Source of the DNA: Acidobacteriota bacterium
GTDB taxonomy: Bacteria; Acidobacteriota; Polarisedimenticolia; JACPZX01
Direction: 5' to 3'
Assembly: GCA_016195325.1 (NCBI GenBank)
Contig: JACPZX010000030.1
Coordinates: 103,043 to 167,042, forward strand
DNA: 64,000 bases
Shown: positions 8,870 to 18,303 of the stretch, piece after piece
How the letters are laid out: the number at the start of each line of letters is the position of its first letter
Numbering within the stretch: the first letter of the stretch is position 1
The notes under the pieces: generated by a model
Database searches by the model: none
What the model was told of the DNA's origin: nothing
The model's input: the letters and a program-made list of their open reading frames with translations, nothing else
Program-made: the position numbers and the translations under genes

Positions 8870-10708
8870 TTACCCGACTCCCACCACCGACAGGACGTCG
8901 AGCGCTCCCTGCACCTTGCCGAACGGGGCGGAGACCTGCACCCCCTGCACGAGGCCGCGCACCTCCTCGAGCGTCTCGCGGGCGATGGCGGTCCCCTCCT
9001 CCTTCGCCTTCCCCTCGGCCTCGGCGCGCTGCATCCGCTCCATGACCGCGTCGGGGACGACGACGCCGGGGACCTCGTTGCGCATGAACTCGGCGTTCCG
9101 CAGGGAGGCGAGCGGCCAGATCCCCGCGATGATCGGGATCTCGTGGTCCTTCACCGCCGCGAGGAACTTCGTGAGCTGCGCGGTGTCGAAGACCGGCTGG
9201 GTGATCGCGAACTCGGCCCCCGCCTCGACCTTGTACTTGAACCGCTTCAGCTCGAAGTCCATGTCGACCGCCCCGGGGTTCGCGCCGACGCCGACGTGGT
9301 ACCCGGTGGGCTTGCCGATGGGGCTCCCGCCGAGGTCGAGGCCGTGGTTCAGGCGGGTGACCATGTTCGTCAGGCCGATGGCGTCGACGTCGAAGACGGC
9401 GGTGGCGTCGGGGTAGTCGCCGAGCTTGGGGGGATCGCCGGTGATGATCAATATGTTGCGCAGCCCCACGGCGTACATGCCGAGGAGATCCCCCTGCATG
9501 CCGATGAGGTTTCGATCGCGGCAGCAGTAGTGCAGGATCGACTCGATCCCCGCCTGCTGCTCCATCATGATGGCCAGGAACATCGCGCCCATGCGGGCCG
9601 CGGCGCGCGCGCCGTCGGGGACGTTGACGGCGTCGACCTTCTTCTCCCTGAGGAGCCTCCCGCTGTCGAGGACCTTCGCGGCCGAGATCCCTCTGGGCGG
9701 GTTCAGCTCCACCAGCGTGACGAAGGCGCCGTCGGCGATCTTCCGGGCCACGAGCGACTTCTCGCGCCGCGCGATCGGCTCGACGTCGAGGCGCTGCTCG
9801 CTCGGCACGAAGATCTGGACGTGACGCTGGGAGGGCCTCAGCATCCGCACCGACTTCACGATGGAGCGGATGTGGTCGGGGGTCGTCCCGCAGCAGCCCC
9901 CGACGATCTTCGCGCCGGCGACGATGAAGCGCTTCGCGTACGTCCCCATGTACTCGGGTGAGCAGAGGTACAGGTTGCGCCCGTCCACGTTGCGCGGCGT
10001 GCCGGCGTTCGGCTGCGCGACGAGCGGCTTTTCCGTCGCCCGGGCGATGCGCTCGACGGCCGCGAGCATCGCGTGCGGCCCGACCGAGCAGTTCACGCCG
10101 ACGACGTCGGCCCCCCACGCGTCGAGCCTCGAGGCGAAGACCTCCGGCTCGGTGCCGTACAGCGACGTGCCGTCCTCCTCCAGCGTCATCTGCGCGACGA
10201 TCGGCAGATCGCACAGCGATCGGATCGCGAGGATCGCCTGGTGCATCTCGTTCAGGTCCGACATCGTCTCGATGCTGAAAAGGTCGACGCCGCCGTCGAT
10301 GAGGCCGCGCGCCTGCTCGAGGAAGGCGGCGCGCGCCTCGTCGACCGAGGTCGGCCCCCAGGGCTCGATCTTGATCCCGAGCGGCCCGATGGAGCCGGCC
10401 ACGTAGCCGTCCTCGCCGGCGACGTCGCGGGCGACGTGGGCGCCGGCCCGGTTGATCTCGCGCGACTTCTCCGCGAAGCCGTGCGCGTTCAGCTTGATGG
10501 GGTTGGCGCCGAAGGTGTTCGTCTCGAGAACGTCGGCGCCGGCCTTCCGGTACGCGCGGTGGACGTCCCTCACGAGATCGGGATTGCTGAGGTTGAGCTC
10601 GTCGAAGCACCGGTTGATGAAGATGCCGCGCGCGTAGAGCTCGGTGCCCATCGCGCCGTCGAAGACGACGAGGGTGTCGGTGAGGGTGTCGCGGAAGGGT
10701 TTTCGCAT
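8870..10708 (-). CDS. yitJ: Bifunctional homocysteine S-methyltransferase / 5,10-methylenetetrahydrofolate reductase (YitJ-like).
   Basis: 612 aa, the same length as B. subtilis YitJ. N-terminal Hcy S-methyltransferase fold (GGCCGTTPDHI zinc site) and C-terminal MTHFR domain. Confidence 0.85.
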   Translation of the reverse strand: MRKPFRDTLTDTLVVFDGAMGTELYARGIFINRCFDELNLSNPDLVRDVHRAYRKAGADVLETNTFGANPIKLNAHGFAEKSREINRAGAHVARDVAGEDGYVAGSIGPLGIKIEPWGPTSVDEARAAFLEQARGLIDGGVDLFSIETMSDLNEMHQAILAIRSLCDLPIVAQMTLEEDGTSLYGTEPEVFASRLDAWGADVVGVNCSVGPHAMLAAVERIARATEKPLVAQPNAGTPRNVDGRNLYLCSPEYMGTYAKRFIVAGAKIVGGCCGTTPDHIRSIVKSVRMLRPSQRHVQIFVPSEQRLDVEPIARREKSLVARKIADGAFVTLVELNPPRGISAAKVLDSGRLLREKKVDAVNVPDGARAAARMGAMFLAIMMEQQAGIESILHYCCRDRNLIGMQGDLLGMYAVGLRNILIITGDPPKLGDYPDATAVFDVDAIGLTNMVTRLNHGLDLGGSPIGKPTGYHVGVGANPGAVDMDFELKRFKYKVEAGAEFAITQPVFDTAQLTKFLAAVKDHEIPIIAGIWPLASLRNAEFMRNEVPGVVVPDAVMERMQRAEAEGKAKEEGTAIARETLEEVRGLVQGVQVSAPFGKVQGALDVLSVVGVG

Positions 10709-10767: not shown

Positions 10768-11694
10768 ATGCCGCGCAACGTCGTCCTCCCGCGCCCTTTC
10801 CTGAAATGGGCCGGGGGCAAGACCCAGCTTCTCGACCGGTTCGAGCCCCTCTACCCGCGCGGCCCGATCTCGCGGTACGTCGAGCCGTTCGTCGGGAGCG
10901 GGGCGGTCTTCTTTCACGTCGCCCGGACGCTCCGCCCCGGCAGCATCGTTCTCGCGGATGGGAACGAGGAGCTCATCAACGCCTACGAGGTGATCCAGCG
11001 GGACGTCGAGCGGCTGATCCGGGCGCTCGCGAAGCACAAGCGGGATCACGGCGAGGATCACTACTACGAAGTGCGGGAGCAGTCCCCCTCGGCGCTCGGC
11101 ACCGTGGCCCGGGCGGCCCGCCTCATCTATCTCAACAAGACGTGCTTCAACGGACTCTACCGCGTGAACAGCCGGGGAGAGTTCAACGTGCCGATGGGCC
11201 GCTACACCGATCCGCCGATTCTCGACGAGCCCAACCTGCGCGCCGTGGCCCGAGCGCTCTCCGGGGTCACCCTGAAGGTCGCCCATTTTCGAGAGACCGT
11301 GACCTACGCGAAGAAGGGGGATTTCATCTACTTCGATCCACCCTACGACCCGGTCTCCGCCACGGCGTACTTCACGGCCTACGCCGTCAACGGCCAGCGG
11401 AGTCACTTCTCGATCGCCGATCAGGAGGAGCTGGCGAGCGTCGGCGCGACCCTGGCCGCGCGCGGGTGCCGGGTGATGCTGAGCAACAGCGACACGCCGC
11501 GCATCAGGAAAATCTACGGCTCCGGATCGCGGTGGCGCACCGTCCCGATCACGGCGCGGCGCAACATCAACTCGAGGGCGGACAGGCGGGGCTCGGTCCG
11601 GGAGCTGGTGATCCTCGGCTACGACACCCAGGTGATGGAACAAAGGCCGCTCAGCCGCGCGCGTCGATCGGCGGCCACCGGGCGCCCGGCGTAG
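10768..11694 (+). CDS. dam: DNA adenine methyltransferase (Dam / D12-class N6-adenine MTase).
   Basis: Motif I FLKWAGGK and motif IV FDPPY. 308 aa. Confidence 0.85.
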   Translation: MPRNVVLPRPFLKWAGGKTQLLDRFEPLYPRGPISRYVEPFVGSGAVFFHVARTLRPGSIVLADGNEELINAYEVIQRDVERLIRALAKHKRDHGEDHYYEVREQSPSALGTVARAARLIYLNKTCFNGLYRVNSRGEFNVPMGRYTDPPILDEPNLRAVARALSGVTLKVAHFRETVTYAKKGDFIYFDPPYDPVSATAYFTAYAVNGQRSHFSIADQEELASVGATLAARGCRVMLSNSDTPRIRKIYGSGSRWRTVPITARRNINSRADRRGSVRELVILGYDTQVMEQRPLSRARRSAATGRPA

Positions 11695-11703
11695 GAGTTC
11701 GGG

Positions 11704-12096
11704 ATGGCGGGGACGAGGACGGCGCTCAAGCACGCCGCGGAGCTGCAGTCGGCCGTCGTCGAGCTCGCGCGCCGGCTGGAGCTCGACGTCCGCGAGGAGG
11801 TGCGTGTCGGGCGGCGGCTCTGGGGCAGCGAGCGGAAGATCGATGTCGTCGTGACGCAGAGGGAGAGCCGCCGCAGCCTCGGGCTCGAGTGCAAGTTCCA
11901 GGCGGTCGGCGGCTCCGCGGAGGAGAAGATCCCCTCGACGATCGCCGACATCGGCGCATGGCCCATCCCCGGACTGGTCGTCTTCTCGGGGGACGGCTTC
12001 TCGTCGAACATGCGCTCGTACCTGGTCTCCACCGGGAAGGCCGTCGATCTCGAAGACCTCGAGTCCTGGCTTCGGCTCTTCTTCGGAATCGACTGA
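11704..12096 (+). CDS. Small PD-(D/E)XK-fold nuclease-like protein, a candidate restriction-endonuclease partner of the Dam-like MTase.
   Basis: 130 aa, beginning 9 nt after the dam stop. Putative catalytic core ...RKIDVVV...LGLECKFQ (D ... E-x-K). No other recognisable family assignment could be made from sequence alone. Confidence 0.45.
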   Translation: MAGTRTALKHAAELQSAVVELARRLELDVREEVRVGRRLWGSERKIDVVVTQRESRRSLGLECKFQAVGGSAEEKIPSTIADIGAWPIPGLVVFSGDGFSSNMRSYLVSTGKAVDLEDLESWLRLFFGID

Positions 12097-12112
12097 CGGG
12101 AGGTTGACGAGG

Positions 12113-12460
12113 ATGCCCACCATCGACTGGCGGTATCACCGGAACGGGTGAGTGAGCTGCGGCAGGACGCAGGAGTTTCTTGCGAAGAGGAAGATCGAGT
12201 CGAGGGAGCTTCGGGACGCGAAGAAGCAGACCATCGGCGGGAGCGAGGCGCTGAAGCTCGTGCTCGAGATGGACGAGATCTACGTCGCGAAGGGATCCAA
12301 GCTCGTGCACATCGACGTGAAGAAGGATCGGCCGGACGCGGCCACGTTGAAGGCGCTGGTCATCGGCCCCACGGGCAACCTCCGCGCGCCGTGCGTGAGG
12401 ATCGGGAGGACGATGCTCATCGGCTTCAGCGAGGAGGCGTACCTCAAGGTGCTTGCCTGA
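12113..12460 (+). CDS. ArsC/Spx/YffB-family thioredoxin-fold protein with an in-frame TGA at 12149..12151. Either a candidate selenoprotein with a U-x-x-C motif or a disrupted gene.
   Basis: ATG at 12113 is preceded by GGGAGG and reads MPTIDWRYHRNG-TGA-VSCGRTQEFLAKRK... in a single frame. The C-terminus (PCVRIGRTMLIGFSEEAYLKVL) matches the YffB/ArsC C-terminus ([22 protein letters not shown]). The TGA sits where the family has its redox Cys (Spx SPSC-TSC-RKARAWLE vs RNG-U-VSC-GRTQEFLAK). A hairpin (CGCAGG-AGUUU-CUUGCG) begins 17 nt downstream of the TGA. Track ORF 12152..12460 (GTG start, no RBS) is the conservative alternative. Confidence 0.45.
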
Positions 12461-12487: not shown

Positions 12488-13204
12488 GTGCGACGAGGAG
12501 CGACGATGAGGCGAGATGTTGCGACATTCGGGATATTCCGCGCCGTCGGCATCCTCGCGATCGCGGGTCTCGCCGCCGGCGCCGCCCGCGCCGACCAGGG
12601 CGAGCCCCCCACCTCGGGCGCCGGCGAGAGGTACTTCTACAACCGGACCGTCGGCCCCGGGAAGGTTGCCTGCGCGGACTGCCACACGATCGAAGACCCC
12701 GCGAAGGGGGCGATGGACGACCTCGTCCGCGCCGGCCACTCCCTCTTCGACGCCTTCGCGCGCGGCTCGTGGTGGAACGGCCACGTGACGACCGACTCCG
12801 GAGAGGCGGCCGAGGTCTGCCACCACCGCTTCCAGGGAGGCGAGGAGATCGACAGCCGATCGCGGACCAGCCTCGTCATGCTCATGAAGGACCACTCGAC
12901 CCCCGTCTCGAGCCCCATCACGGTGCTGCGCGTGCCGCCGGGCCGGACGCCGGTCAACTCCGGGGACGCCGCCAGGGGGAAGGATCTCTTCCGGCGGGCC
13001 TGCGCCGTCTGCCACGAGGCGACCGGCCCGAACGGCGGCGGGAGCCTCGCGGCGTCGTCGAAGACGCCGCGGGAGATCGCCGACGTCGTTCGAACGGGGC
13101 AGGGACGGATGCCTCTCTTCCAGGGCGACGTCCTGTCGGACGACCAGGTGGCCGACATCGCCGCGTACGCCTTCTCCCTCCAGCCCCCCGCGAAACAGCC
13201 GTAG
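12488..13204 (+). CDS. Dihaem c-type cytochrome (secreted).
   Basis: Signal peptide and two CXXCH haem-binding motifs (CADCH, CAVCH). Confidence 0.75.
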   Translation: MRRGATMRRDVATFGIFRAVGILAIAGLAAGAARADQGEPPTSGAGERYFYNRTVGPGKVACADCHTIEDPAKGAMDDLVRAGHSLFDAFARGSWWNGHVTTDSGEAAEVCHHRFQGGEEIDSRSRTSLVMLMKDHSTPVSSPITVLRVPPGRTPVNSGDAARGKDLFRRACAVCHEATGPNGGGSLAASSKTPREIADVVRTGQGRMPLFQGDVLSDDQVADIAAYAFSLQPPAKQP

Positions 13205-13262: not shown

Positions 13263-14915
13263 GTGCCGTGGGGGGGAGTTGTGCCCCGACGGCGATCGAA
13301 CTCCCCGCTCACGGAAGCGCCCTTGAGAGAAAACCCAGGTTCCAGCGCGCCCCCGTCTCGCCTTCGGGACTGGATTCCCGTCCTCCTGACGGGGCTGGCG
13401 CTCCTCCATCCGGAGGTCGGCTTCGGCGCGTCGTGCACCGGGATCTCGCCGGCGTCCTCGGCGCAGCTGGACGCCGTCGTGATCGCGACGGGGCTCCCCC
13501 GCCCGCTCTTCGTGACGTCCATCCCGGGCGACAACTCGCGGATTTTCGTCCTCGAGCAGGGAGGGCGGATCCGCGTCCTGCGGGGGGCGTCGCTCCTCCC
13601 CACACCGTTTCTCGACATCACGTCGATCACGGCCTCTCCGGACAACGGAGGCTTTGGAGAGCAGGGCCTGCTCGGGCTCGCCTTCGATCCGGCCTACGCG
13701 ACCAACGGCTGGTTCTACGTGTACTACACGCCCATCTCGGGCGGGCGCAACATCGTGGCCCGCTACACGCGATCGGCCCTCGACCCGGACATCGCGGACC
13801 CGAACAGCGGCGTCGAGGTGCTCTCGATCACCCACCCGGGCGGCTTTCACAACGCCGGCATGCTGGCCTTCGGGCCCGCCGACGGATTGCTCTACGTCGG
13901 CGTCGGCGACGGCGGGGATTACTGCGATCGGGTCGGCAACGCGCAGAACGGCGCCACCGACATGGGGAAGATCCTGAGGGTGGACGCGCGCCACGTCCCC
14001 GCGACGATCCCTCCGTCGAACCCCTTCGTCGGCCCCGACGGCGTGAACGACGAGATCTGGGCCCTGGGGCTTCGGAACCCGTGGCGGTTCTCCTTCGACC
14101 CGCTGACCTTCGACCTCTACCTCGGCGACGTCGGACAGGCCTCCCGCGAGGAGATCGATTTCCGGCCGGCCGGGAGCCCCGGAGGTGAGAACTACGGCTG
14201 GAACAGCTACGAGGGATCGGTGTGCCCGAACCCATCCTGCGGGAGCGCCAGCTGCTCCGTGCCGTCGTACGAGCCCCCGGTGCTCGACTACGATCACACG
14301 AACGGCTGTGCCGTCGTCGCGGGGTACGTCTACCGCGGATGCCGCATGCCGGATCTCGCCGGCACATTCTTCTACGGGGACCTCTGCTCCGCCTTCGTCC
14401 GCACGTTTCAGATCTCGGGAGGGACGGCGGTGAACCTCCGCGATCGGACGGCGGAGCTCGTCCCCAACGGGGGCGCTCCCATCGCGTGGATCACGTCGTT
14501 CGGCACAGACGCCCGCGGAGAGATCTACGTCGTCGACGGCGGCCTCGGGAACGGCAACATCGGGACGATCTACAAGATCGTCCCGGCACTCCCGGAGATC
14601 GAGGTCTCCGGGGTCGGCGCCAAACAGCTCTCCGTGAGCGCGTCCGGTTGGTCCTGGGAGAACGTGACCGCGATGTCGTCGCAGCCGATCTCGGAGTACC
14701 GCGTGTACCGGGCGAGCGCGCCTTCAGGACCGTTCGAGTGCGTCCACGCGGGCACGGAGTTCAGCTGGGCCGGCGGCGACTCCGCCGCACCCGCGCCCGG
14801 GCACGCGTTCTACTACGTCGTGATCGGGGTCAACGCATCGGGGGAGGAGACGAACTCGGGGTGGGGAACGAACGGCAGCCCGCGGTCTCTCTCGGGCGCC
14901 GCCTGCCCTCCTTGA
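13263..14915 (+). CDS. PQQ-dependent soluble sugar dehydrogenase (glucose/sorbosone dehydrogenase family beta-propeller) with a C-terminal extra domain.
   Basis: Motifs GLLGLAFDP, HNAGMLAFGPDGLLYVGVGDGG, GLRNPWRFSFDP. The exact start is uncertain: a hydrophobic signal-like stretch (WIPVLLTGLALLHP) sits about 35 aa after the first ATG. Confidence 0.8.
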   Translation: MPWGGVVPRRRSNSPLTEAPLRENPGSSAPPSRLRDWIPVLLTGLALLHPEVGFGASCTGISPASSAQLDAVVIATGLPRPLFVTSIPGDNSRIFVLEQGGRIRVLRGASLLPTPFLDITSITASPDNGGFGEQGLLGLAFDPAYATNGWFYVYYTPISGGRNIVARYTRSALDPDIADPNSGVEVLSITHPGGFHNAGMLAFGPADGLLYVGVGDGGDYCDRVGNAQNGATDMGKILRVDARHVPATIPPSNPFVGPDGVNDEIWALGLRNPWRFSFDPLTFDLYLGDVGQASREEIDFRPAGSPGGENYGWNSYEGSVCPNPSCGSASCSVPSYEPPVLDYDHTNGCAVVAGYVYRGCRMPDLAGTFFYGDLCSAFVRTFQISGGTAVNLRDRTAELVPNGGAPIAWITSFGTDARGEIYVVDGGLGNGNIGTIYKIVPALPEIEVSGVGAKQLSVSASGWSWENVTAMSSQPISEYRVYRASAPSGPFECVHAGTEFSWAGGDSAAPAPGHAFYYVVIGVNASGEETNSGWGTNGSPRSLSGAACPP

Positions 14916-16005: not shown

Positions 16006-18303
16006 TCACGCCATCCCGGAGTAGAAGTAGAGGACCGACTGGCCCCACGAGACGAGCCGCGTCCACCACTTGAGGGCCGGCCAGGGGTCGCCCTTCACGG
16101 TTCGCGCGTTGTTGTTGAAGTCGGCGTCGAGCGCGACGGCGGCGTCGGGATCGATCCGCACGGAGACGAGGGCCTCGGGACCCGCCTCGGAGACCTTCAG
16201 CCAGCGGTAGGAGCCATCCCACACGCGCGTCTCGGTCTTCCCCGAGGCGAAGGTGAGCTGGTACCGGACGGGAACGCGCACGTCCCCGAGACGCCTCAGG
16301 ACGAACTCGTTCCGGAACCCATCGGCGGACGGCGCGGCGGACCGCGCCTCGCCGATCGAGACGGTTTTCCTCGACGCGGGCGGACCGAAGACTCCGGCCC
16401 CGGCTTTCGGCCGCTCGCTCGAGACCGACGCCACCGCGTAGTCGAGCACGCCGCTGCCGTGCACGGTCTGGTCGAAGTACGCCGAGAGATCGGTTCCCGA
16501 CACCTCGCTCGCCGTCCTCAGGAAGTCGGCGGTCGACGGGTGCCTGAACCGGAAGCGCTCGTGGTAGATCCTCATGACGCGGGCGACGGTGTCGGGGCCG
16601 AGGATCGCCTCGAGAGTCCTGAGCGTGAGGGCCGTCTTCGAGTAGGAGTTGTTGGCGTACGATTCCTCGTCGAGGAACTCCCATGCGTTGCGCACGAGCT
16701 CGTCCTTCGTCGGCCCTCCCTTGAGATACCGCATGCGCCGCTCGAGCGGATCGCGCACGGCGACGTCGCCGGGGGAGTGGACGAGCGGCAGATCGCGGAA
16801 GGCGTTCAGCAGGGAATCGTTCGAGGCTCCCGTGAAGCGAAGGCCCAGGAACCGGGTCACCGGATCCCCTTCCGGACCGGGGTTCCGCGAGGAGGGATCC
16901 GGGTCCTTCGGCAGATCGAGCAGCGCCATCCTCACCAGCGGGACTCCCGCGACCTCGACGATCTCGTGGTTCGGGCCGAAGACCTTCTCCATCACCTTGC
17001 CGGTGGAGTAGGTGTTGAACCCCTCGTCGAGCCACGCCTCCTCGAACTCGTTGTTGGCGACCATCGCGTACCAGAACTGGTGGCCGAACTCGTGGACCGT
17101 CACCCCCTCGGGGGACTGGCGCCCCGTGGGCGCGAGGTAGCTCGCGCCGGCGGTGATGAAGGTCGGGTACTCCATTCCCCCGGCGCCGCGGGCCCCGTAC
17201 GCGGGGTCGACGACGGTGAGCGTCCGGTACGGGTAGCGCCCGTACCAGTACCCGAAGTACTTGATCCCGGCGAAGGCGGCCTTGAAGTGCCGATCGACGA
17301 GCGCGGCGTGCTCGGGCTGCGCGAGGAGCGTCACCTCGACGTCGCTGAGCCGCAGATCCTCCGGGACGCCGGAGAGATCCGACGCCCCCGCCGGGGGAAT
17401 CGCGCGCGCGTCGAGGCCGAGAATGCGGGCCATCCGCCTCTCCTCCCCGGGGTCGCGCTCGGCGGCGTACCGGAACGTGCGCGTCACCTTCAGGTACCGC
17501 GGCTCAGCTGTCCACGCGAAGTCGTGGATGTCCGTCTCCGCGAAATGGTACGTCGTCGTGTCCCCCGCCACCCGCGGGCTCTCCGTCTCTTTGCCTGTCG
17601 CACCGACGACGAACGGCGACGGGACCGTCAGCGTCACGTCGAACGAGCCGAAATCCGCGTAGAACTCGCCCGAGGCGTGGAACTGGTGGCAGTTCCATCC
17701 GGAGGCGACGCGCCCCCGGAACCCCGCCGGCTCGTAAACCCCCAGCTTCGGGAACCACTGCCCCACGAGATAGAAGTCGCCCTTGTACCCGGTGCGGGCG
17801 AAGACGCGCGGAAGGCGCGAGTCGAACGCCGCCTCGAACGTCACCTCGCCCCCCGGCGGCACCGGCGCGGGAAGCGGCACGATGAGGACCGTCTCATCCT
17901 CGGCGTTCTCGTCGTCGGGGTGGATGAAAGCCGCGCCGGCGAGGAGATCGGCGCCCGACGCGAGCTTCAGCGACGTCAGATCGATGAAGCCCCAGCCGCC
18001 GTCGCGCGCGCGGAAGCCGCGGTGGCGCCCCTTCGACTCCTTCATGAACGTGCTGCGCTCGTTCTTGAAGGCGTTCAGGTAGAGGTGAAGACGGAGATCG
18101 CCCACGCTCTCCGCGGAGAGGTTGCGCCACGTGACCGACTCGCGGCCGTGGACCGTCCGGCTCGGGTGATCGAGCGACGCCTCGATGCGGTACGAGACCA
18201 CGCGCTCGCTCGACCGCGGCAGCGCGGCGCGGGCGGAGGAGATGGTGCCCACGAGAGCAGCCGTGAGCGCGAGCAGGCCGGCGATGACGTTGCGAGGTGT
18301 CAC
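16006..18303 (-). CDS. Secreted M1-family zinc metallopeptidase (aminopeptidase N-like).
   Basis: Signal peptide MTPRNVIAGLLALTAALVGTISSARA. GGMEY (GAMEN-like) followed by HEFGHQFWYAMVANNEFEEAWLDEGFNTY (HEXXH-X18-E). Confidence 0.8.
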   Translation of the reverse strand: MTPRNVIAGLLALTAALVGTISSARAALPRSSERVVSYRIEASLDHPSRTVHGRESVTWRNLSAESVGDLRLHLYLNAFKNERSTFMKESKGRHRGFRARDGGWGFIDLTSLKLASGADLLAGAAFIHPDDENAEDETVLIVPLPAPVPPGGEVTFEAAFDSRLPRVFARTGYKGDFYLVGQWFPKLGVYEPAGFRGRVASGWNCHQFHASGEFYADFGSFDVTLTVPSPFVVGATGKETESPRVAGDTTTYHFAETDIHDFAWTAEPRYLKVTRTFRYAAERDPGEERRMARILGLDARAIPPAGASDLSGVPEDLRLSDVEVTLLAQPEHAALVDRHFKAAFAGIKYFGYWYGRYPYRTLTVVDPAYGARGAGGMEYPTFITAGASYLAPTGRQSPEGVTVHEFGHQFWYAMVANNEFEEAWLDEGFNTYSTGKVMEKVFGPNHEIVEVAGVPLVRMALLDLPKDPDPSSRNPGPEGDPVTRFLGLRFTGASNDSLLNAFRDLPLVHSPGDVAVRDPLERRMRYLKGGPTKDELVRNAWEFLDEESYANNSYSKTALTLRTLEAILGPDTVARVMRIYHERFRFRHPSTADFLRTASEVSGTDLSAYFDQTVHGSGVLDYAVASVSSERPKAGAGVFGPPASRKTVSIGEARSAAPSADGFRNEFVLRRLGDVRVPVRYQLTFASGKTETRVWDGSYRWLKVSEAGPEALVSVRIDPDAAVALDADFNNNARTVKGDPWPALKWWTRLVSWGQSVLYFYSGMA

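What the first reader, a model, noticed from the sequence alone, without database searches (positions are those of the whole stretch)
12113..12460. In-frame TGA at the redox-active position of an ArsC/Spx/YffB-family gene: candidate selenoprotein with a U-x-x-C motif
The conservative ORF (12152..12460, GTG start, no RBS) lacks the first beta-strand and active-site region of the thioredoxin-like ArsC/Spx/YffB fold. Reading from ATG 12113 (GGGAGG 10 nt upstream) gives MPTIDWRYHRNG, then TGA, then VSCGRTQEFLAKRK in one frame. This restores the missing beta-strand and puts the TGA exactly where the family has its nucleophilic Cys (Spx LYTSPSC-TSC-RKARAWLE vs RYHRNGU-VSC-GRTQEFLAK). Sec replacing Cys in a CxxC redox motif is the classic signature of prokaryotic selenoproteins. 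A 6-bp hairpin (CGCAGG/CUUGCG, loop AGUUU) begins 17 nt downstream of the UGA, compatible with a bacterial SECIS. The alternatives are a recent nonsense mutation (pseudogene) or a sequencing error.
Basis: partly seen in the sequence, partly recalled or inferred. Interest (0 to 1): 0.7.

Follow-up and report, generated by a model that had tools for sequence, protein, structure and literature searches.

The report
Known ArsC-family selenoprotein gene, mis-annotated
The in-frame TGA is real and almost certainly encodes selenocysteine in a small thioredoxin-fold redox protein, but the family is already catalogued as a selenoprotein family, so this is a correct but ordinary call that mainly fixes a truncated annotation.

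Summary
ATG 12113 to TGA 12458-12460 is one 115-codon gene with an in-frame TGA at 12149-12151. Read through, the protein matches NCBIfam NF041106 "ArsC family (seleno)protein" end to end (136 bits, cutoff 85). In 80 species-representative genomes from several phyla, plus the window and two independent assemblies of the same gene, the codon at this column is TGA in 77, TGC/TGT in 6, and never TAA/TAG. The nine codons upstream evolve like coding sequence in the frame that runs into the TGA. It shows compensatory changes and frozen synonymous sites, and it is weak or degraded in the Cys forms. A structure model puts the Sec/Cys at the N-cap of helix 1, the thioredoxin-fold CxxC position. No Sec machinery lies in the 64-kb window, and the rest of the genome could not be examined. 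ArsC-like UxxC selenoproteins have been listed since 2006-2008. The public record calls this gene a 102-aa hypothetical protein. Biochemical function is still unknown. Interest is low.

The parts
12098..12103 (+). Shine-Dalgarno-like GGGAGG, 9 nt upstream of the ATG
   Evidence: Read directly from the sequence. The upstream gene's stop TGA is at 12094-12096.
12113..12460 (+). Full selenoprotein CDS: 115 residues (114 standard codons plus one UGA-Sec codon) followed by the stop. ArsC/Spx/YffB-superfamily protein, NCBIfam NF041106.
   Evidence: Translation. NF041106 hit with E=5e-40, 136.4 bits against a cutoff of 85, profile positions 1-107 of 107 on residues 4-110. An ATG at the equivalent position (-12 codons) occurs in 50 of 75 TGA-form sequences.
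12122..12148 (+). Conserved N-terminal peptide IDWRYHRNG (beta-strand 1 and the turn before the redox motif). The public 102-aa gene call omits it.
   Evidence: The motif recurs in frame in all loci. Pairwise identity by codon position is 0.81/0.89/0.51, which is third-position wobble. Beta-1 spans residues 7-10 in the AF2 model of the Cys homologue P0006.
12149..12151 (+). UGA read as selenocysteine (U13), first residue of the U-x-x-C motif
   Evidence: Codon at this column: TGA 77, TGC 5, TGT 1, no TAA/TAG. It aligns with Cys in full-length homologues. It sits at the N-cap of helix alpha-1 in the model.
12158..12160 (+). TGC encoding Cys16, the resolving partner in the U-V-S-C motif
   Evidence: C16 is nearly invariant in A1 and invariant in A3.
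12168..12184 (+). Bacterial SECIS-type hairpin: stem 12168-12174 / 12178-12184 (C-G, G-C, C-G, A-U, G-U, G-C, A-U) with apical loop GUU at 12175-12177. It starts 17 nt after the UGA.
   Evidence: 93.2% of cells are paired against 31-68% in the slid controls. Pair 26/30 is A-U 47, G-C 19, G-U 0. Pair 21/35 has 6 double changes. Fisher p=4e-12 for the 26/30 association (sequences are related, so this is not a strict probability). All 68 distinct TGA forms fold into a 6-9 bp hairpin with a G-U-containing loop (mean -9.1 kcal/mol), against -2.75 for the 6 Cys forms. The Leu codon inside the stem is CTT in 69 of 75.
12365..12391 (+). Family signature GPTGNLRAP (residues 85-93)
   Evidence: G85 P86 T87 G88 L90 R91 P93 are invariant in A1. 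This peptide was used as the scan pattern that recovered at least 598 relatives.

Best explanation
12113-12460 is a single gene for a 115-residue selenoprotein of the curated family NF041106 (ArsC family (seleno)protein), a divergent branch of the thioredoxin-fold ArsC/Spx/YffB superfamily. Shown: the UGA at 12149-12151 occupies the column that is Cys in the minority Cys forms, the flanks on both sides are under coding constraint in one frame, and a conserved hairpin lies at bacterial-SECIS distance. Inferred from established knowledge of bacterial Sec decoding: SelB with GTP and Sec-tRNA(Sec) binds the hairpin at 12168-12184 (7-bp stem, GUU loop) while the ribosome has the UGA in the A site, and Sec is inserted instead of terminating. 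Inferred from the fold: the product carries a U13-x-x-C16 motif at the N-terminus of helix alpha-1 and cycles between a selenol/thiol state and a selenenylsulfide. That would make it a small redox protein (oxidoreductase or redox sensor). The substrate and the reductant are unknown. No operon partner is conserved, so it probably acts as a stand-alone protein.
For: Family membership. TGA/Cys column and conserved upstream frame. The 102-aa length class of database homologues shows that gene callers stop at the same TGA everywhere. Two homologues carry W at this column, consistent with a TGA translated under genetic code 4. SECIS conservation, covariation and specificity to TGA forms. Independent assemblies give the same TGA. 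Fold: AF2 pLDDT 90.9, beta-1 at 7-10, alpha-1 at 15-26, Cys14 at the N-cap. Nearest solved structures are Spx, YffB and ArsC-related proteins. The ArsC Cys12 column aligns with the Sec/Cys column. ArsC-like UxxC selenoproteins are listed in PMC1794560, PMC2398784 and PMC9312934.
Against: No selA, selB, selD or tRNA-Sec in the 64-kb window, and the rest of the genome could not be examined. No other read-through TGA gene in the window that would independently show Sec use. The window's own RNA segment is not thermodynamically exceptional. There is no experimental evidence for Se incorporation, and none was looked for, for any member of this subfamily. Pfam ArsC scores below its gathering threshold (18.7 against 24). 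Structural similarity to Spx/YffB is only moderate (TM 0.52-0.58), so the functional analogy is loose.
Confidence: 0.9

Rival explanations
1. Relic gene. The family is a genuine selenoprotein family, but this particular organism has lost the Sec machinery, so the UGA terminates and the gene is non-functional or yields only a 12-residue peptide.
For: No Sec machinery in the window. No second selenoprotein gene in the window.
Against: Start codon, SD, all conserved N-terminal residues (IDW.YHR.G), the UxxC motif, the SECIS stem and loop, and the full downstream frame are intact. A dead gene would be expected to decay. A 64-kb window is only a small fraction of a genome, so finding no sel genes in it is uninformative.
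Confidence: 0.05
2. The TGA is a true stop and the functional product is the 102-aa protein initiated at GTG 12152, by re-initiation or translational coupling after a 12-codon leader.
For: GTG lies immediately after the TGA. Public gene calls use it.
Against: Only 19 of 75 TGA-form sequences have a start-capable codon at +1, and 27 of 75 have none within 24 codons. The upstream 9 codons are conserved as protein. The truncated product would lack beta-strand 1 and the first redox residue. There is no SD before the GTG.
Confidence: 0.03
3. Sequencing or assembly error, or a recent nonsense mutation (TGC/TGT to TGA) private to this genome.
For: A single-base change would convert Cys to TGA.
Against: Two independent assemblies from different runs carry the identical TGA. 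74 of 80 other species have TGA at the same column. The TGA-specific hairpin is present here.
Confidence: 0.01
4. Genome-wide reassignment of TGA (to Trp or Gly, genetic codes 4/25) rather than Sec.
For: Two database homologues show W at this column.
Against: TGA ends this gene itself (12458-12460), the upstream gene (12094-12096) and many of the high-GC3 open frames listed for this 70% GC window. The W residues are best explained as gene-caller artefacts. The column alternates with Cys, not with Trp or Gly codons.
Confidence: 0.01

Closest known systems
NCBIfam NF041106 ArsC_rel_Se_1, 'ArsC family (seleno)protein'
   Same: Full-length match above the curated cutoff. The model includes the N-terminal strand and the Sec/Cys column. 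Another member, P0013, already carries this name in NCBI.
   Different: Nothing structural. The specific record for this gene (HY049_07455) is annotated as a 102-aa hypothetical protein, and P0013, although correctly named, is also truncated to 102 aa.
'Arsenate reductase 2' (UxxC, cd03032) / 'arsenate reductase-like protein' (COG1393, UxxC) selenoproteins of Zhang & Gladyshev (GOS 2008; 2022 review), and 'ArsC-like' selenoproteins (2006)
   Same: Same superfamily, same UxxC motif, and same prediction logic (TGA aligned with Cys, plus a bacterial SECIS).
   Different: I did not obtain those sequences, so identity of the subfamily is not shown. Those came from marine and deltaproteobacterial sources, whereas this one is from MAGs labelled Acidobacteriota, Planctomycetota and Methylomirabilota.
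Spx / MgsR (TIGR01617) and YffB
   Same: Best sequence and structure matches among solved proteins. An N-terminal CxxC-type motif lies after beta-1 in a thioredoxin-like fold, and there is a C-terminal (L)R.P ... GF motif.
   Different: Only 13-20% identity, TM 0.52-0.58, and 22 bits against a 75-bit cutoff for TIGR01617. The model has a beta-hairpin (residues 56-69) in the region between the N- and C-terminal halves of the fold. No evidence of RNA-polymerase binding.
R773-type arsenate reductase ArsC (Pfam PF03960)
   Same: The Sec/Cys column aligns with catalytic Cys12, within a shared YH...C context.
   Different: Pfam score is below the gathering threshold. No R773 ArsC structure appears among the PDB sequence hits at E<=1. 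ArsC R60 aligns with the family's invariant Gly in a low-probability alignment. The second Cys (UxxC) is typical of the Spx type and not of R773 ArsC (own knowledge).
E. coli fdhF-type bacterial SECIS
   Same: A hairpin inside the coding region just 3' of the UGA, with a conserved G-U in the apical loop, and an apical loop 23 nt after the UGA. Own knowledge of the bSECIS consensus supplies the comparison.
   Different: Short 7-bp stem with a 3-nt loop and no bulged U. Binding to SelB was not tested.

Membership tests
NCBIfam NF041106 ArsC family (seleno)protein | Whole-protein score at or above the curated cutoff (85 bits) with full-length profile coverage | tested here: met
   136.4 bits, E=5.1e-40, profile 1-107 of 107 on residues 4-110 with U read as C.
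Bacterial selenoprotein gene | In-frame UGA at a column occupied by Cys in homologues, and never by other stop codons | tested here: met
   TGA 77, TGC 5, TGT 1, TAA/TAG 0. Cys is present in full-length homologues.
Bacterial selenoprotein gene | Coding constraint in the same frame on both sides of the UGA | tested here: met
   Upstream 9 codons have identity 0.81/0.89/0.51 by codon position, and the downstream codons show the same pattern. The conserved peptide is M..IDWSYHRPG-U.
Bacterial selenoprotein gene | SECIS hairpin shortly 3' of the UGA with a conserved apical-loop G | tested here: met
   7-bp stem starting 17 nt after the UGA with a GUU loop. 93% of cells paired, with compensatory changes, and present only with TGA.
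Bacterial selenoprotein gene | selA, selB, selD and tRNA-Sec present in the same genome | not testable with these tools
   None in the 64-kb window or in the 82 locus flanks. The remainder of the source genome could not be fetched.
Bacterial selenoprotein gene | Selenium incorporation shown experimentally | not testable with these tools
   Needs 75Se labelling or mass spectrometry.
ArsC/Spx/YffB superfamily (Pfam PF03960) | Pfam ArsC score at or above the gathering threshold | tested here: not met
   18.7 bits against 24, although several homologues carry a precomputed PF03960 hit.
ArsC/Spx/YffB superfamily (Pfam PF03960) | Thioredoxin-like fold with the redox Cys at the N-terminus of helix 1, closest to Spx/YffB/ArsC structures | tested here: met
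   AF2 pLDDT 90.9. The top Foldseek PDB hits are Spx, YffB and ArsC-related proteins with probability 1.00 and TM 0.52-0.58. PDB profile hits are Spx and a putative ArsC at E about 1e-5 to 1e-6.
R773-type arsenate reductase | Catalytic Cys12 plus the Arg60/Arg94/Arg107 triad | tested here: inconclusive
   Cys12 aligns with the Sec/Cys column, and R60 aligns with the invariant Gly. R94 and R107 fall outside the aligned region.
Spx/MgsR regulators (TIGR01617) | Score at or above the curated cutoff (75 bits) | tested here: not met
   22.2 bits.

The most novel reading that the evidence does not exclude
This subfamily exists mostly as the Sec form (74 of the 80 best species representatives) and stands alone with no conserved neighbours. 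It is spread across MAGs labelled as soil, groundwater and aquatic phyla (Acidobacteriota, Planctomycetota, Methylomirabilota), and its predicted structure departs from Spx/ArsC. It could therefore have a function that none of its characterised relatives has, for example a selenium-dependent redox sensor or regulator, rather than being a generic thiol oxidoreductase.
Probability: 0.12. Interest if true: 0.5.

Novelty: already known. Interest (0 to 1): 0.2.

Why it matters
The practical value is in annotation. The public record for this gene (HY049_07455) and most database homologues are truncated 102-aa 'hypothetical' or 'arsenate reductase-like' proteins that lack the first beta-strand and the catalytic selenocysteine. 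The data also give a clean example of a SECIS hairpin constraining both synonymous codon choice (Leu CUU, Phe UUU) and an amino-acid choice (Glu-GAG/UUU against Gly-GGG/UUC) inside a coding region. They further imply that this MAG, labelled Acidobacteria in NCBI, uses selenocysteine. None of this changes what is known about selenoproteins, and the family's biochemical role is still open.

Tried and rejected
1. Single-sequence folding of 12149-12215 gave z = -0.49 and the MFE chose a different pairing. I dropped it as evidence in favour of comparative analysis.
2. De novo RNAalifold recovered only 5 of the 7 stem pairs, with a weak energy. The named-structure pair count was more informative.
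3. Sec machinery. ARAGORN and Rfam on the window found only tRNA-Arg and tRNA-Ser. ARAGORN on 58 locus flanks found no tRNA-Sec. This is uninformative for the whole genome.
4. A search for other read-through TGA genes in the window, using a codon-position GC filter, returned only two ordinary gene junctions at 16008 and 48611. The filter is crude and did not flag 12149 itself, because its upstream arm is so short.
5. GC3-only gene calling could not separate sense from antisense frames at 70% GC.
6. The conserved-neighbour analysis over 81 loci found no operon partner. The only recurrent outside cluster was a sulfatase in 13 loci at variable position and strand.
8. Rivals considered and rejected: alternative genetic code, sequencing error, and re-initiation (see rival explanations).

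Full report
**Observation.**
- The upstream gene ends with TGA at 12094-12096.
- GGGAGG lies at 12098-12103 and ATG at 12113.
- The frame reads MPTIDWRYHRNG, then TGA (12149-12151), then VSCGRTQEFLAKRK..., ending at TGA 12458-12460.
- The conventional ORF is 12152-12460 (GTG start, 102 aa).
- The hairpin CGCAGG/CUUGCG is at 12168-12173/12179-12184. With one more A-U pair it becomes a 7-bp stem with a GUU loop.

**Family.** With the TGA read as Cys, the 115-aa protein matches NCBIfam NF041106, 'ArsC family (seleno)protein'. The match is E=5e-40, 136.4 bits against a cutoff of 85, and covers profile positions 1-107 of 107, so it includes the N-terminal strand and the Sec/Cys column. Pfam ArsC is sub-threshold at 18.7 against 24 bits. 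TIGR01617 (Spx/MgsR) scores only 22 bits.

**Homologous proteins.** Of 83 database relatives, most are exactly 102 aa and cover about 89% of the query. They are gene calls that begin at the residue after the TGA column.
- The best hit, P0001, covers ORF 12152-12460 end to end (its only difference from my query is M for V at the GTG start codon). NCBI names it 'hypothetical protein HY049_07455 [Acidobacteria bacterium]', on a 178-kb contig.
- P0013 is already named 'ArsC family (seleno)protein' by NCBI, but it is also truncated to 102 aa.
- The few full-length relatives have Cys at the column (HRNGCTTC).
- Two have W there, which is what a gene caller using code 4 would write for TGA.

**DNA of relatives.** A scan of one genome per species found at least 598 relatives, and the best 80 loci were fetched. 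Counting the window and two independent assemblies of the same gene as well, the codon at the column is TGA in 77, TGC in 5 and TGT in 1. It is never TAA or TAG.
- The in-frame peptide M..IDW(S/R)YHR.G precedes the TGA in all of the loci.
- Its nine codons show pairwise identity of 0.81/0.89/0.51 at codon positions 1/2/3, which is the signature of translated sequence.
- Only 19 of 75 TGA forms have a start-capable codon right after the TGA, and 27 have none within 24 codons. Re-initiation is therefore not the conserved mode of expression.
- L001 and L002 come from two different sequencing runs and both carry the window's exact TGA. This rules out a sequencing error.

**SECIS.** In an ungapped alignment of 74 distinct TGA forms, the stem at columns 20-26/30-36 has 93.2% of cells paired. 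Registers slid by 1-3 columns give 31-68%. Covariation exceeds all 500 shuffles.
- The closing pair is A-U in 47 sequences and G-C in 19 or 20, and never G-U. The switch couples an amino-acid change (Glu GAG to Gly GGG) with a synonymous change (Phe UUU to UUC). Fisher p=4e-12, but the sequences are related, so this is not a strict probability.
- Pair 21/35 shows six double changes.
- A few loci (for example L017, L022, L044, L053) use Leu UUG instead of CUU. They rebuild the stem in a shifted register, GC(U/C)CAAG-AGUU-CUUG(A/G)GC.
- The Leu codon in the stem is CTT in 69 of 75 sequences.
- All 68 distinct TGA forms fold locally into a 6-9 bp hairpin with loop GUU (58), AGUU (6), AGUUC (2) or GUA (2). 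Mean stability is -9.1 kcal/mol.
- The six Cys forms average -2.75 kcal/mol. The only one that keeps a stem (L076, TGT) has lost the loop G.
- The position, with the loop starting 23 nt after the UGA, and the conserved loop G fit the bacterial SECIS pattern as I know it from the fdhF paradigm (own knowledge).
- The single-sequence fold of the window is not exceptional, and RNAalifold de novo recovers only part of the stem.

**Protein.** An AlphaFold model was built from a 40-sequence alignment headed by the natural Cys form P0006 (54% identical to the window protein). It is confident, with pLDDT 90.9 and pTM 0.82.
- Beta-1 spans residues 7-10 and helix alpha-1 spans 15-26. Cys14, equivalent to U13 in the window, sits at the N-cap of alpha-1, the thioredoxin-fold CxxC position.
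- Foldseek against the PDB returns Spx, YffB (PA3664) and ArsC-related proteins first. The match is moderate: TM 0.52-0.58 and 13-20% identity.
- A profile search of PDB sequences gives a putative ArsC and Spx proteins at E about 1e-5 to 1e-6.
- A profile alignment to R773 ArsC puts the Sec/Cys column on catalytic Cys12 and puts ArsC R60 opposite an invariant Gly.
- I therefore regard the protein as a UxxC redox protein of the Spx/YffB-like branch, and not as a demonstrated arsenate reductase.

**Context.** No gene neighbour is conserved across the 81 loci. In the window the gene sits among these genes:
- a fused homocysteine S-methyltransferase/MTHFR gene (8870-10708, minus strand);
- a Dam-type methyltransferase (10768-11694);
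- a PD-(D/E)XK nuclease-family gene (11704-12096);
- a c-type cytochrome (about 12506-13204);
- a glucose/sorbosone dehydrogenase-family gene (13263-14915).

**Sec machinery.** None was found. The window has only tRNA-Arg and tRNA-Ser, and the 58 flanks that were scanned have no tRNA-Sec. tblastn with E. coli SelA, SelB and SelD found nothing. No second read-through TGA gene turned up in the window. This does not bear on the genome as a whole, which the tools could not reach. It remains the one open refutation test.

**Comparison with what is known.** ArsC-like selenoproteins were reported in 2006 (PMC1794560). 'Arsenate reductase 2, UxxC, cd03032' is part of the GOS selenoproteome (PMC2398784). 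The 2022 review lists an 'arsenate reductase-like protein, COG1393, UxxC' and cites that GOS study (PMC9312934). Together with the curated NCBIfam model, this makes the family already known. What is specific to this locus is that the deposited annotation is a truncated hypothetical protein.

**Verdict.** Novelty is 'already known' and interest is low (0.2). The residual novel possibility is that this Sec-dominant, stand-alone, structurally divergent subfamily has an uncharacterised function (probability about 0.12).

Noticed in passing
window 10768-12096: A D12-class N6-adenine DNA methyltransferase (10768-11694) is followed directly by a small PD-(D/E)XK nuclease-family gene (PDDEXK_11, 11704-12096). 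This looks like a compact restriction-modification pair immediately upstream of the selenoprotein gene. The same pair is present in L001/L002.
   Followed up: partly
window 8870-10708 (- strand): A single 612-aa protein fuses a homocysteine S-methyltransferase domain (residues 14-286) with a methylenetetrahydrofolate reductase domain (322-582).
   Followed up: no
L076:6031-6105: A Cys-form relative (TGT) from a MAG labelled Obscuribacterales still has a perfect 7-bp hairpin at the SECIS position, but its loop is UUU instead of GUU. This could be the footprint of a fairly recent Sec-to-Cys conversion.
   Followed up: partly
L034 (DATIWG010000076.1, labelled Nitrosotalea sp.): A contig assigned to an archaeal MAG carries a TGA-form gene whose protein start and SECIS region closely resemble those of loci labelled Methylomirabilota/Rokubacteria (L026, L057, L062, L063). 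It is probably a mis-binned bacterial contig.
   Followed up: no
P0013, P0007, P0019 (database homologues): P0013 is named 'ArsC family (seleno)protein' by NCBI, yet it is still the 102-aa product that starts after the UGA. P0007 and P0019 have Trp at the Sec column, apparently from translating TGA as Trp. Annotation of this family is inconsistent across sources.
   Followed up: partly
AF2 model m28d35ea9e135 (P0006), residues 56-69: The model has a beta-hairpin (strands 56-61 and 64-69) in the middle of the protein. The TM-score to Spx/YffB/ArsC structures is only 0.52-0.58. The middle subdomain may differ from that of the characterised relatives.
   Followed up: no
L019:8070-8145, L032:7655-7730, L051:9955-10030: A tRNA-Cys(GCA) gene lies 1.6-4 kb downstream of the selenoprotein gene in three loci labelled Methylomirabilota. 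This is probably lineage synteny and not a functional link.
   Followed up: no
A2 columns 4-6 (codon after the UGA), window 12152: The base immediately after the UGA is A in 65 of 75 TGA forms. The window has G, the minority state. This may reflect a context preference for Sec decoding or simply the preferred residues there (Lys/Thr/Met).
   Followed up: no
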